Shown here: piece after piece, positions 12,001 to 15,000 of the stretch | How positions within the stretch are numbered: the first letter of the stretch is position 1 | How the letters are laid out: each line of letters starts with the position of its first letter | Made by a program: the position numbers | NCBI RefSeq assembly: GCF_041248615.1 | Contig: NZ_CP158426.1 | Direction: 5' to 3' (one strand) | Length of the DNA stretch: 64,000 nucleotides | DNA from: Escherichia coli | GTDB lineage: Bacteria; Pseudomonadota; Gammaproteobacteria; Enterobacterales; Enterobacteriaceae

Positions 12001-15000
12001 GCGCAGGCCACGACCGTTAAGCCCGGCGTGTATTAATGCTGAATGCGCTTATCCGGCTTACAGCAGTACCAAACTGTAGCCGGATAAGGCGTTTACGCCG
12101 CATCCGCCATAAATCTTGTCGTACCCTACAAAAATCCCATTAGAGGAAGAAAAATGAGCGACACCTCACCTGCCATACCGGAAAGTATCGATCCGGCAAA
12201 TCAGCATAAAACGCTGACTGCCGGACAACAGGCGGTTATTAAGAAGCTATTTCGCCGCCTGATCGTCTTTCTGTTCGTGCTGTTTATCTTCTCGTTCCTT
12301 GATCGCATCAACATCGGCTTTGCCGGGCTAACGATGGGACGCGACCTCGGTCTGAGCGCCACCATGTTTGGCCTCGCCACCACCCTGTTCTATGCCGCTT
12401 ATGTCATCTTCGGCATTCCCAGCAACATTATGCTGAGTATTGTCGGTGCGCGGCGCTGGATCGCCACCATCATGGTGCTCTGGGGCATCGCCTCTACGGC
12501 CACCATGTTTGCCACTGGCCCCACCAGCTTATACGTACTGCGTATACTGGTTGGCATTACCGAAGCCGGCTTTCTGCCTGGCATTCTGCTGTATTTAACC
12601 TTCTGGTTTCCGGCCTATTTCCGCGCCCGTGCCAACGCCTTGTTTATGGTAGCAATGCCGGTAACGACAGCGCTGGGATCGATCGTTTCCGGCTACATTT
12701 TGTCGCTGGATGGCGTAATGGCATTAAAAGGCTGGCAGTGGCTGTTTTTGCTGGAAGGCTTCCCGTCGGTATTACTCGGCGTCATGGTGTGGTTCTGGCT
12801 TGATGACTCACCGGACAAAGCTAAGTGGCTGACGAAAGAAGACAAAAAATGCCTGCAAGAGATGATGGATAACGATCGTCTGACGCTGGTTCAGCCAGAG
12901 GGAGCCATCAGTCACCACGCCATGCAACAACGCAGCATGTGGCGGGAGATCTTCACTCCGGTGGTGATGATGTATACCCTGGCGTATTTCTGCCTGACCA
13001 ACACACTTAGTGCAATCAGCATCTGGACACCGCAGATCCTACAAAGCTTTAATCAGGGCAGCAGTAATATCACCATCGGCCTGCTGGCCGCCGTACCGCA
13101 GATTTGTACCATTCTCGGGATGATCTACTGGAGCCGTCACTCAGATCGCCGCCAGGAACGAAGGCATCACACCGCCCTTCCTTATTTGTTCGCTGCCGCT
13201 GGTTGGTTACTGGCTTCGGCAACTGATCACAACATGATCCAGATGCTGGGGATCATTATGGCTTCGACCGGATCATTCAGCGCAATGGCGATTTTCTGGA
13301 CAACACCGGATCAGTCCATCAGCCTGCGGGCACGAGCGATCGGTATTGCGGTGATCAACGCCACTGGCAACATTGGTTCAGCGTTAAGTCCGTTTATAAT
13401 CGGCTGGTTGAAAGATCTGACCGGCAGCTTTAACAGTGGATTGTGGTTTGTTGCCGCGCTGCTGGTGATTGGTGCGGGGATTATCTGGGCAATTCCAATG
13501 CAGTCCTCCCGTCCGCGAGCGACCCCGTAAGGAACGACGATGTGTGACCGTCAGATTGCCAATATTGATATCAGCAAAGAGTACGATGAAAGCCTGGGCA
13601 CGGACGATGTGCATTATCAGTCCTTCGCCCGCATGGCGGCATTTTTTGGCCGCCATATGCTGCCACATCGCCACGAACAGTACTTTCAGATGCATTTCCT
13701 CAATAGCGGACAGATTGAGCTACAGCTTGACGATCATCGCTACTCGGTGGAAGCGCCCCTGTTTGTCCTGACGCCGCCGTCAGTACCTCATGCGTTTATT
13801 ACGGAGTCTGACGCCGACGGTCATGTGTTGACGGTACGGGAAGATCTGATCTGGCCCCTGCTGGAAGTTCTTTATCCGGGCACTCGGGAAACCTTCGGCC
13901 TGCCGGGGATTTGCCTGTCACTGGCAGATAAACCCGACGAACTGGCAGCGCTGGAACACTATTGGCAACTGATAGAGCGGGAATCGGTGGAACAACTGCC
14001 TGGACGGGAACACACCCTGACGTTACTGGCACAGGCAGTATTCACCCTACTGCTGCGTAACGCAAAACTCGACGACCATGCCGCCAGCGGGATGCGCGGA
14101 GAATTAAAACTGTTCCAGCGTTTTAATATGCTGATTGAAAGCCATTTTCATCAGCACTGGACAGTACCGGATTACGCTAACGAACTGCATATCACCGAAT
14201 CACGTCTCACGGACATCTGCCGCCGCTTTGCCAACCGTCCGCCAAAACGGTTGATTTTCGACAGGCAGCTGCGAGAAGCCAAGCGGCTGCTGCTGTTTTC
14301 TGATAACGCCGTGAACAATATTGCCTGGCAACTCGGTTTTAAGGATCCGGCTTATTTTGCGCGCTTTTTTAATCGTTTAGTCGGTTGCTCGCCCAGTGCT
14401 TATCGTGCCAAAAAAGTACCTGTGACGTGAAAATCCCTTAGCCTTAACGGGAAACCAGGCACCACCTGCTATTCCCCTTTCTCCGCCTGGAGCAAGGGGA
14501 TTTAGTAACGTCAAAAATCGCTAAAAGCGACCTCGATCACAAAACCGTACCCGACCTGAAAAGTACCAGCCATTGTCCCAAAAGTGTCTTCCCGTAATCG
14601 CCCCTGCAAGCTTCAATTGAATAACAAAAACAACACACAAAATTAACAATCGTATTCCGATTAATACTGTAGAGGTCGACATGAAACCAGAAGATTTCCG
14701 CGCCAGTACCCAACGTCCGTTCACCGGGGAAGAGTATCTGAAAAGCCTGCAGGATGGTCGCGAGATCTATATCTACGGCGAGCGAGTGAAAGACGTCACC
14801 ACTCATCCGGCATTTCGTAATGCGGCAGCGTCTGTTGCCCAACTGTACGACGCGCTGCACAAACCGGAGATGCAGGACTCTCTGTGTTGGAATACCGACA
14901 CCGGCAGTGGCGGCTATACCCATAAATTCTTCCGCGTGGCGAAAAGTGCCGACGACCTGCGCCAGCAACGCGATGCCATCGCTGAATGGTCACGCCTGAG

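What the first reader, a model, noticed from the sequence alone, without database searches (positions are those of the whole stretch)
12043..12107. Multiple REP/BIME palindromes marking operon boundaries
REP-like palindromes occur after hpaF (10383..10414), after hpaI (12043..12107), after yjiR (32917..33020), near kptA (49515..49543), between uxuR and uxuB (56541..56574) and after gntP (61190..61226). They confirm an enterobacterial backbone. The two inside the hpa cluster show the island has been resident long enough to acquire host repeats.
Basis: partly seen in the sequence, partly recalled or inferred. Interest (0 to 1): 0.15.

Follow-up and report, generated by a model that had tools for sequence, protein, structure and literature searches.

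The report
Ordinary E. coli REP repeats
The flagged sequences are real copies of REP, the commonest short palindromic repeat of E. coli, sitting as usual in the gaps just after genes; this is ordinary, and it does not show how long the hpa gene cluster has been in the genome.

Summary
Confirmed and ordinary. The window is E. coli chromosome (100% to NZ_OW967178.1). All six listed sites pass a formal search: 8 palindromic units (PUs) at 6 loci, E = 1e-8 to 4e-3, and nothing else in 64 kb below E about 0.1.

- **Location and density:** all 8 PUs are intergenic (10.5% of the window is). Density is 8 PUs against about 9.6 expected from MG1655.
- **Focal element (12038-12108):** a two-unit cluster starting 1 nt after the hpaI stop codon. 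It has a decayed z2-type unit, a 14-nt linker and a y-type unit with GTAG.
- **Copy number:** it matches at least 40 unannotated places in 5425 of 5426 E. coli genomes. A control hairpin matches 1.
- **Polymorphism:** the locus has 2 or 3 units in E. coli strains and 0-4 in other genera.
- **Likely role (inferred):** a 3'-UTR hairpin that protects hpaGEDFHI mRNA and damps read-through into hpaX.

The hpaF-hpaH unit lies inside the operon, not at a boundary. The residence-time argument fails: the same REP arrays occur in Pseudocitrobacter and Citrobacter hpa clusters, and hpa may be ancestral to E. coli and lost from K-12. Already known; low interest.

The parts
12034..12036 (+). hpaI stop codon (TAA); the REP cluster starts 1 nt after it
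   Evidence: Annotation of the identical record NZ_OW967178.1; sequence
12038..12061 (-). Focal PU1: decayed z2-type REP, read as iREP on the + strand (GCTGAATGCG-CTTATCCGGCTTAC). It has a 5-nt deletion and three substitutions relative to the intact copy in E. coli B
   Evidence: Alignment with E. coli B, FCI51 and F95; weak profile hit at E 0.17; folds at only -1.9 kcal/mol alone
12062..12075 (+). 14-nt linker between the two inverted PUs (AGCAGTACCAAACT)
   Evidence: Sequence; alignment
12076..12108 (+). Focal PU2: y-type REP with 5' GTAG and the AA/GC stem bulge (31 of 34 positions match the y consensus)
   Evidence: nhmmer E 1.3e-4 and 1.7e-7; fold -13.5 kcal/mol
12118..12153 (+). Conserved hpaX leader with its ribosome-binding site (GTACCCTACAAAAATCCCATTAGAGGAAG). 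It is present in every genus with or without REPs, so it is not part of the repeat
   Evidence: Cross-genus spacer comparison
10381..10414 (+). Site 1: degenerate y-type REP inside the hpaGEDFHI operon, between hpaF and hpaH. It has CCAG instead of GTAG and a 3-nt insertion
   Evidence: Profile E 1.2e-5. The orthologous position in the E. coli representative strain and in Pseudocitrobacter holds a canonical GTAGGCCGGATAAGGCGCAGCCGCATCCGGC
32919..32952 (-). Site 3 PU1: y-type REP (28 of 34) in the yjiR|rpn convergent spacer
   Evidence: nhmmer E 3.7e-3; conserved in K-12
32953..32987 (.). Site 3: A+T-rich 35-nt linker resembling the L linker (core AATATATTGAA on the - strand)
   Evidence: Sequence; inverted repeat I2; whole element folds at -41 to -43 kcal/mol, z -3.8 and -6.0
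32988..33016 (+). Site 3 PU2: z2-type REP (28 of 29)
   Evidence: nhmmer E 8e-5
49515..49542 (-). Site 4: z2-type REP (26 of 29; ATAG instead of GTAG) between iatD and kptA, in a segment absent from K-12
   Evidence: nhmmer E 4.1e-4; at least 40 places per genome; K-12 comparison
49551..49569 (.). Site 4: L-linker-like motif CTGCAATATATTGAATTTA. Elsewhere in E. coli genomes, matches extend over the REP plus this motif (query positions 1-75)
56541..56574 (-). Site 5: y-type REP (33 of 34) at the 3' end of uxuAB, before uxuR. One C-to-A change relative to K-12 weakens the stem
   Evidence: nhmmer E 4.7e-6 and 1.3e-8; K-12 alignment
61192..61227 (-). Site 6: z1-type REP (33 of 36) in the gntP|fimH convergent spacer, identical in K-12
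   Evidence: nhmmer E 1.6e-5; K-12 alignment

Best explanation
**What it is.** The element at 12038-12108 is a small REP cluster of the E. coli REP/BIME family. It has the layout of a BIME-2 or REPIN: two palindromic units in opposite orientation. The first is a decayed z2-type unit beginning 1 nt after the hpaI stop codon. A 14-nt linker follows, then a y-type unit that keeps the GTAG tetranucleotide and the stem bulge. The other five listed sites are ordinary single or paired REPs of types y, z1 and z2.

**How it most likely works (inferred, not shown here).** The cluster is transcribed as the 3' end of the hpaGEDFHI (homoprotocatechuate meta-cleavage) mRNA. It folds into a stable hairpin that impedes 3'-to-5' exonucleases, which protects the upstream message. 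It also partially stops, probably with Rho, transcription running on into hpaX. This would set the hpaI : hpaX expression ratio. Because the structure begins within 15 nt of the stop codon, it may also lower HpaI output by hindering translation termination.

**Origin.** It arose by secondary insertion or spread of REPs into a short ancestral spacer. Copy number then changed by recombination between directly repeated units.
For: **Identity**
- Consensus and profile searches are significant.
- At least 40 copies per genome in 5425 of 5426 genomes, all in unannotated DNA, against 1 for a control hairpin.
- The intact version in E. coli B reads GCCGGATGCGCTGCACTTATCCGGCCTAC - 14 nt - GTAGGCCGGATAAGGCGTTTACGCCGCATCCGCC.
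- It meets the defining features given by Ton-Hoang et al. 2012.

**Structure**
- The 96-nt RNA folds at -33.2 kcal/mol, z = -4.6, with 0 of 200 shuffles folding as well. The E. coli B and three-unit forms fold at -45 and -67 kcal/mol.

**Context**
- The position directly follows the last gene of hpaGEDFHI.
- No sigma-70-like promoter and no + strand terminator-like site (hairpin plus T run) in 9900-12400.
- REP-free genera keep only the 43-47-nt hpaX leader. In Yersinia hpaG1G2EDFHIXBC is described as one operon. hpaX is therefore plausibly fed by read-through.

**Function by analogy**
- REP325 acts as a partially Rho-dependent attenuator and as an upstream-mRNA stabiliser. REP-containing tandem gene pairs show upstream-biased expression (Harris et al. 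2026 preprint).

**Dynamics**
- Two or three units in E. coli strains. The 51-nt difference is bounded by directly repeated y units.
- 0-4 units across genera.
Against: - No expression data for this locus were available, so the functional steps are by analogy only.
- In this strain PU1 has lost its own stem.
- Unit number varies freely among strains and genera, which fits weak or no selection.
- Harris et al. report large variance, and no general effect of REPs on mRNA half-life.
- The translation effect of REPs close to stop codons is recalled from Liang, Rudd and Deutscher 2015; I could not read that paper here.
Confidence: 0.9

Rival explanations
1. It is a real REP cluster, but here a decaying and selectively neutral remnant with no regulatory effect on hpa expression.
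For: - PU1 carries a 5-nt deletion and substitutions and folds at only -1.9 kcal/mol.
- PU2 has lost one G of the foot, and its closing CCGGC has become CCGCC.
- Unit number varies from 0 to 4 among genera and from 2 to 3 among E. coli strains.
- REPs have no uniform effect on half-life genome-wide.
Against: - The two units still pair with each other into a -33 kcal/mol hairpin that no shuffle equals.
- Spacers at this position have been refilled by repeats in many independent lineages.
- REP-containing tandem gene pairs show upstream-biased expression on average.
Confidence: 0.35
2. It is the intrinsic (Rho-independent) terminator of the hpaGEDFHI operon rather than a member of a repeat family.
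For: A G+C-rich hairpin directly after the last gene of the operon.
Against: - The hairpin is followed by no T run: the terminator scan found nothing on the + strand in 9900-12400.
- The sequence is repeated at least 40 times per genome.
- Most REPs lack the poly-U tract.
Confidence: 0.04
3. It is a locus-specific regulatory site, either the hpaX promoter or an operator for HpaA or HpaR.
For: It lies upstream of hpaX and is palindromic.
Against: - No promoter-like hexamers.
- The sequence is not locus-specific.
- Genera without it keep hpaX with only the conserved 43-47-nt leader.
Confidence: 0.03
4. The matches are chance palindromes in G+C-rich intergenic DNA.
For: Single-unit folds of sites 1, 4, 5 and 6 are not unusual compared with shuffles (z from +0.3 to -1.8).
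Against: - Search E-values of 1e-8 to 4e-3 in the 64-kb window.
- All units are intergenic.
Confidence: 0.01

Closest known systems
E. coli REP / palindromic units of types y, z1 and z2 (Stern 1984, Gilson 1984, Bachellier 1994/1999; as defined in Ton-Hoang et al. 2012, PMC3333891)
   Same: - Length of 24-36 nt and an imperfect palindrome with a stem bulge.
- A flanking GTAG, intact in 5 of the 8 units.
- Sequence match to the three consensus types.
- High copy number.
- Strictly extragenic, at 3' ends of genes.
   Different: Nothing essential. Three units are degenerate: site 1 has CCAG and a 3-nt insertion, focal PU1 has a 5-nt deletion and GTAA, and site 4 has ATAG.
BIME-2 / REPIN (a y unit plus a z2 unit in inverse orientation with a short linker; the unit thought to be mobilised by TnpA_REP/RAYT)
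   Same: The focal element, and more clearly its intact E. coli B allele, is z2 (inverted) - 14 nt - y. The number of units at the locus varies between strains, as described for BIMEs.
   Different: - I could not check the linker against the named S/s/l/r motifs.
- Most strains carry a third y unit in direct rather than alternating orientation.
- The z2 unit in this window is decayed.
BIME-1 / RIP / RIB elements (y plus z1 with the long L linker carrying an IHF site)
   Same: - Site 3 has two inverted units separated by a 35-nt A+T-rich linker with the core AATATATTGAA.
- Site 4 has a unit followed by CTGCAATATATTGAATTTA. The combination of REP and linker recurs elsewhere in E. coli genomes.
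   Different: - Site 3 pairs y with z2, not z1, which makes it an 'atypical BIME'.
- Site 4 has no clear second unit.
- By eye, the IHF consensus WATCAANNNNTTR is matched with 1 mismatch at site 4 and 2-3 mismatches at site 3.
REP325 in yjdM-yjdN and the malE-malF REPs (intercistronic REPs that stabilise upstream mRNA and attenuate downstream transcription)
   Same: A tandem gene pair with REPs in the intercistronic 3' UTR (hpaI to hpaX; hpaF to hpaH).
   Different: REP325 has 12 units; here there are one or two. No expression data exist for the hpa sites.

Membership tests
REP (E. coli y/z1/z2 palindromic units) | 30-40-nt imperfect palindrome able to form a hairpin with a mismatch bulge | tested here: met
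   Seven of the eight units fold as a bulged hairpin at -5 to -20.5 kcal/mol. Focal PU2 shows the AA/GC bulge. Focal PU1 does not fold well (-1.9 kcal/mol) because of its deletion.
REP (E. coli y/z1/z2 palindromic units) | Conserved GTAG tetranucleotide 5' of the foot of the stem | tested here: met
   GTAG is intact in 12076-12079 and in the units of sites 3a, 3b, 5 and 6. It is GTAA in focal PU1, ATAG at site 4 and CCAG at site 1.
REP (E. coli y/z1/z2 palindromic units) | Sequence similarity to the y, z1 or z2 consensus | tested here: met
   nhmmer E from 4.7e-6 to 3.7e-3 with consensus sequences recalled from the literature. A profile built from independent REP copies gives 1.3e-8 to 1.2e-5. 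Identities are 26-33 of 29-36 positions.
REP (E. coli y/z1/z2 palindromic units) | High copy number dispersed in the genome | tested here: met
   At least 40 places per genome (the cap) in 5425 of 5426 genomes for the focal element and for site 4. The control hairpin gives 1. The degenerate site 1 gives only a median of 3.
REP (E. coli y/z1/z2 palindromic units) | Exclusively extragenic, mostly in 3' UTRs between tandem or convergent genes | tested here: met
   No unit overlaps coding sequence. Three loci lie between tandem genes and three between convergent genes.
REP (E. coli y/z1/z2 palindromic units) | Bound and cleaved as single-stranded DNA by TnpA_REP (RAYT) | not testable with these tools
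   This needs biochemistry. The requirements reported for binding (GTAG plus the stem mismatch) are present in focal PU2.
BIME-2 | A y unit and a z2 unit in inverse orientation separated by a short linker, with unit number variable between strains | tested here: met
   The layout is z2 (inverted) - 14 nt - y, with 2 or 3 units in different E. coli strains.
BIME-2 | Linker and flanks belong to the named S, s, l and r motifs | not tested
   The motif sequences are in figures and papers not held in the library.
BIME-1 / RIP (sites 3 and 4 only) | y plus z1 units with the conserved L linker carrying an IHF site | tested here: inconclusive
   Site 3 is y plus z2 with an L-like 35-nt linker. Site 4 is z2 plus an L-like motif without a clear second unit. 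By eye, the IHF consensus is matched with 1-3 mismatches.

The most novel reading that the evidence does not exclude
The two hpa spacers (hpaF|hpaH and hpaI|hpaX) may be recurrent insertion hot spots across Enterobacteriaceae. At least three unrelated repeat families fill them: genus-specific REP types, a CCCTCTCCC...GGGAGAGGG boxC-like palindrome, and ERIC-like elements. These repeat-filled spacers may also serve as recombination joints for swapping hpa gene cassettes between genera. In the window, DNA identity to Pseudocitrobacter falls from about 95% (hpaE-D) to about 81% (hpaF), rises to about 92% (hpaH-I) and falls again to about 81% (hpaX-A). Two of those three breakpoints lie at the REP spacers.
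Probability: 0.15. Interest if true: 0.4.

Novelty: already known. Interest (0 to 1): 0.08.

Why it matters
It matters little. REPs are the most abundant and longest-known intergenic repeats of E. coli, and finding them at 3' ends of genes is expected. The check has three modest uses.

- It warns against using REP presence as a clock for how long a gene cluster has been resident, because the repeats can travel with the genes between related genera.
- It shows that the hpaI-hpaX and hpaF-hpaH spacers are polymorphic in REP content between E. coli strains. That makes them natural allelic series for testing how REP number tunes expression within and after an operon.
- It gives exact unit coordinates for annotating this window.

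Tried and rejected
- **Annotated REP loci in a reference genome.** The NC_000913.3 record held by the tool lists no REP or repeat_region features in the homologous 50 kb. I aligned the K-12 DNA directly instead.
- **Papers likely to mention REPs in the hpa cluster.** Prieto et al. 1996 (PMC177627) and Diaz et al. 2001 (PMC99040) are not held. Text searches for hpa plus REP gave nothing relevant.
- **Fuzzy regular-expression scan.** It timed out with 8 errors allowed; I replaced it with nhmmer.
- **Generic inverted-repeat finder.** With its defaults it found only site 3, because REP stems are shorter than 12 nt and bulged.
- **Rfam.** The only family hit in the window is symR. No match to any family at the REP sites is not evidence against REP identity.
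- **Candidates rejected as REPs.** The hairpin at 45-73 after opgB is single-copy. The palindrome at 53573-53619 ending in TCAGGCCTAC lies inside the hypT coding sequence and had no profile hit.
- **Single-unit RNA folds.** Sites 1, 4, 5 and 6 are not unusual against shuffles, so fold energy alone would not have identified them.
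Full report
**Context.** The window is E. coli chromosome. Positions 9000-14000 are 100% identical to NZ_OW967178.1 and two other records. That record's annotation gives the gene order: opgB | lgoD lgoR lgoT tsr hpaR hpaGEDFHI hpaX hpaA hpaBC btsT yjiX yjiA ... hsdRMS symE ... yjiR rpn mdtM ... iatD kptA ... uxuR uxuB uxuA gntP fimH.

**Observation.** I read all six sites and searched the whole window formally.

nhmmer with the y, z1 and z2 consensus sequences gave significant hits at five of the six loci. I recalled those sequences from the literature. They are consistent with the intact copies seen later in E. coli B.
- y: 56541-56574 (E 4.7e-6), 12079-12106 (1.3e-4), 32919-32951 (3.7e-3)
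- z1: 61193-61227 (1.6e-5)
- z2: 32988-33016 (8e-5), 49515-49541 (4.1e-4)

The hpaF-hpaH site was missed by this search. A profile HMM built only from ten y-type REPs found in hpaI-hpaX spacers of other strains and species recovered it at E 1.2e-5. It also raised the other y units to 1e-8 and 2e-7. Nothing else in the 64 kb scored below E about 0.1, so the list is complete: 8 palindromic units at 6 loci.

All units are intergenic, while only 10.5% of the window is intergenic. The count of 8 is close to the 9.6 expected from 697 units in MG1655.

An ordinary hairpin after opgB (33-110) matches exactly one place per genome.

**Anatomy of the focal element.**
- The hpaI stop codon is 12034-12036.
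- One nucleotide later begins PU1 (12038-12061), a z2-type unit read as iREP on the + strand.
- A 14-nt linker follows (12062-12075).
- PU2 (12076-12108) is a y-type unit with GTAG and the AA/GC bulge.
- Next comes a 45-nt stretch up to the hpaX ATG at 12154. Its last 36 nt (12118-12153) are the conserved leader with the ribosome-binding site.

Alignment with other hpa+ strains shows the following.
- E. coli B carries both units intact: GCCGGATGCGCTGCACTTATCCGGCCTAC - 14 nt - GTAGGCCGGATAAGGCGTTTACGCCGCATCCGCC.
- In this window PU1 has a 5-nt deletion and three substitutions, and PU2 has lost one G of its foot.
- Most hpa+ strains (13 of 15 evenly spaced rows) carry a third y-type unit in direct orientation. 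The 51-nt difference is bounded by the two directly repeated y units. That fits deletion or duplication by recombination between them.

On its own PU1 barely folds (-1.9 kcal/mol). The two units do pair with each other into a -33.2 kcal/mol hairpin (z = -4.6, 0 of 200 shuffles as good). The E. coli B and three-unit alleles fold at -45 and -67 kcal/mol.

**The other sites.**
- **Site 1 (10381-10414).** A degenerate y unit with CCAG for GTAG, a 3-nt insertion and few BLAST matches elsewhere. The orthologous position in the E. coli representative strain and in Pseudocitrobacter holds a canonical GTAGGCCGGATAAGGCGCAGCCGCATCCGGC, so it is a REP by descent.
- **Site 3.** A true pair: y, a 35-nt A+T-rich L-like linker, then z2. 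It is conserved in K-12.
- **Site 4.** A z2 unit followed by an L-like motif, in the iatD segment that K-12 lacks.
- **Site 5.** A y unit matching 33 of 34 positions. It differs from K-12 by one stem-weakening C-to-A change.
- **Site 6.** A z1 unit identical in K-12.

**Mechanism.** REP identity is shown. Function is inferred.

The focal cluster lies at the end of the hpaGEDFHI meta-cleavage operon (operon structure from PMC7201708 and PMC7180172). No sigma-70-like promoter and no + strand terminator-like site (hairpin plus T run) was found between 9900 and 12400. Genera without REPs keep only the 43-47-nt hpaX leader. In Yersinia hpaG1G2EDFHIXBC is described as one operon. hpaX is therefore plausibly reached by read-through from the meta operon.

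By analogy with REP325, the most likely role is a 3'-UTR hairpin that protects hpaGEDFHI mRNA and damps transcription into hpaX. REP325 is a partly Rho-dependent attenuator and a stabiliser of upstream mRNA, and REP-containing tandem gene pairs show upstream-biased expression. Since the structure begins within 15 nt of the stop codon, a translational effect of the kind reported by Liang, Rudd and Deutscher (2015; recalled, not read here) is also possible.

The main rival is that in this strain the cluster is a neutral, decaying remnant. This is supported by the damage to PU1 and by free variation in unit number. I put that at about one in three.

'Operon boundaries' holds for five loci. It does not hold for the hpaF-hpaH unit, which is inside the operon.

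The residence-time argument does not hold. I fetched hpa clusters from about 45 Enterobacterales species and extracted both spacers.
- **REP-free states exist.** The hpaF-hpaH spacer is 8-11 nt in Buttiauxella, Yokenella, Serratia and a Pluralibacter MAG. The hpaI-hpaX spacer is 43-47 nt in K. michiganensis and two Enterobacter strains. The repeats are therefore secondary insertions, and their types differ between genera.
- **The array is shared.** The same iREP-REP-REP array follows hpaI in Pseudocitrobacter, and related arrays occur in Citrobacter.
- **One unit is shared across genera.** GCCCGGTGGCGCTGCGCTTACCGGGCCTAC sits right after hpaF in many genera and in about half of hpa+ E. coli (979 records). 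It is rare elsewhere in E. coli genomes.
- **The genes themselves are close to Pseudocitrobacter.** The window's hpaE-D and hpaH-I are about 92-97% identical in DNA to Pseudocitrobacter, whereas hpaF and hpaX-A are about 81%.

The repeats can thus be inherited or transferred with the genes. In addition, the literature considers hpa possibly ancestral and lost from K-12. The G+C content of the hpa region (52-58%) is not distinct from its neighbours tsr and btsT.

**Comparison with what is known, and verdict.** Every testable defining feature of the REP family given by Ton-Hoang et al. 2012 is met.
- The focal element has the layout of a BIME-2 or REPIN.
- Site 3 is an atypical BIME with an L-like linker.
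- Site 4 is a single z2 unit followed by an L-like motif.

Nothing departs from what has been described since the 1980s. Novelty: already known. Interest: low.

The only mildly unexpected by-products are these:
- Both hpa spacers have been filled repeatedly by different repeat families across genera.
- Two of the three identity breakpoints against Pseudocitrobacter lie at those spacers.

I record this as the most novel reading not excluded, with low probability.

Noticed in passing
window 17021-17150: A 130-nt insertion relative to K-12, upstream of btsT. It contains GTGAATCCCCGGGAGCTTACAACAGTAAGTGACAGGGGTGAACG, which resembles the ERIC/IRU core (recalled from memory). It is repeated about 9 times per E. 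coli genome (median) in unannotated DNA.
   Followed up: partly
L003 (K-12) about 3850-3920, aligned to the gap between window 61157 and 61172: In the gntP-fimH spacer K-12 carries an extra repeat of about 70 nt (GTCCCCTCGCCCCTCCGGGGAGAGGGTTAGGGTGAGGGG, boxC-like) that the window lacks. The same repeat family fills the hpaF-hpaH spacer of Enterobacter, Leclercia, Kluyvera and Klebsiella species (L014-L016, L018, L020, L042).
   Followed up: partly
window 9986-10366 and 12154-14430, against L008 and L010: Mosaic DNA identity to the Pseudocitrobacter hpa clusters: hpaE-D 94-99%, hpaF about 81%, hpaH-I about 92%, hpaX-A about 81%. Two of the three breakpoints coincide with the REP-filled spacers. 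This suggests exchange of hpa segments between genera.
   Followed up: partly
window 10367-12600, against E. coli genomes: There are deep hpa haplotypes within E. coli. Most hpa+ strains are only 94-95% identical to the window over hpaI-hpaX, and the E. coli GTDB representative is 93.7% identical in hpaH. The hpaF-hpaH spacer has two forms, found in 1082 genomes (one-PU form) and 979 records (two-PU form). Only 2020 of 5426 complete genomes carry hpa.
   Followed up: partly
L007 3790-3963 (E. coli strain SCPM-O-B-8794): In this strain the hpaI-hpaX spacer holds a tandem duplication of the z2 unit that includes a copy of the last codons and stop of hpaI (GTTGTATTAATGCCGGATGCGC).
   Followed up: no
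L051 and L022, hpaI-hpaX spacers: Serratia quinivorans and a Raoultella strain carry a different, ERIC-like insert of about 150-180 nt in the spacer where E. coli has REPs.
   Followed up: no
window 45-73: A perfect 12-13-bp hairpin (GTGTAGGTCGCA..TGCGACCTACAC; -26.8 kcal/mol, z -5.4) just after opgB. It contains GTAG/CTAC but is single-copy in E. coli genomes, so it is not a REP. It may be the opgB 3' structure.
   Followed up: yes
window 5596-16859: In K-12 the hpa segment (about 11.3 kb) is replaced by 133 nt between tsr and btsT. No REP lies at either junction. A TGTGAT..TCACA motif upstream of btsT is present in both.
   Followed up: partly
window 44229-50175: The inverse autotransporter gene iatD (5.2 kb) is absent from K-12, where kptA and yjiJ are 12 nt apart. 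kptA is annotated as frameshifted in this strain.
   Followed up: no
window 20605-31000: The immigration-control region differs from K-12. It has an EcoAI-family type I hsdRMS plus DUF262 and GmrSD genes in place of K-12 mrr, EcoKI hsd and mcrBC. The SymR antitoxin RNA is found at 28399-28475 (Rfam, 88 bits).
   Followed up: no
window 56565: The y REP after uxuB has TTATACGG where K-12 has TTATCCGG. This is a single change that breaks one stem pair.
   Followed up: yes
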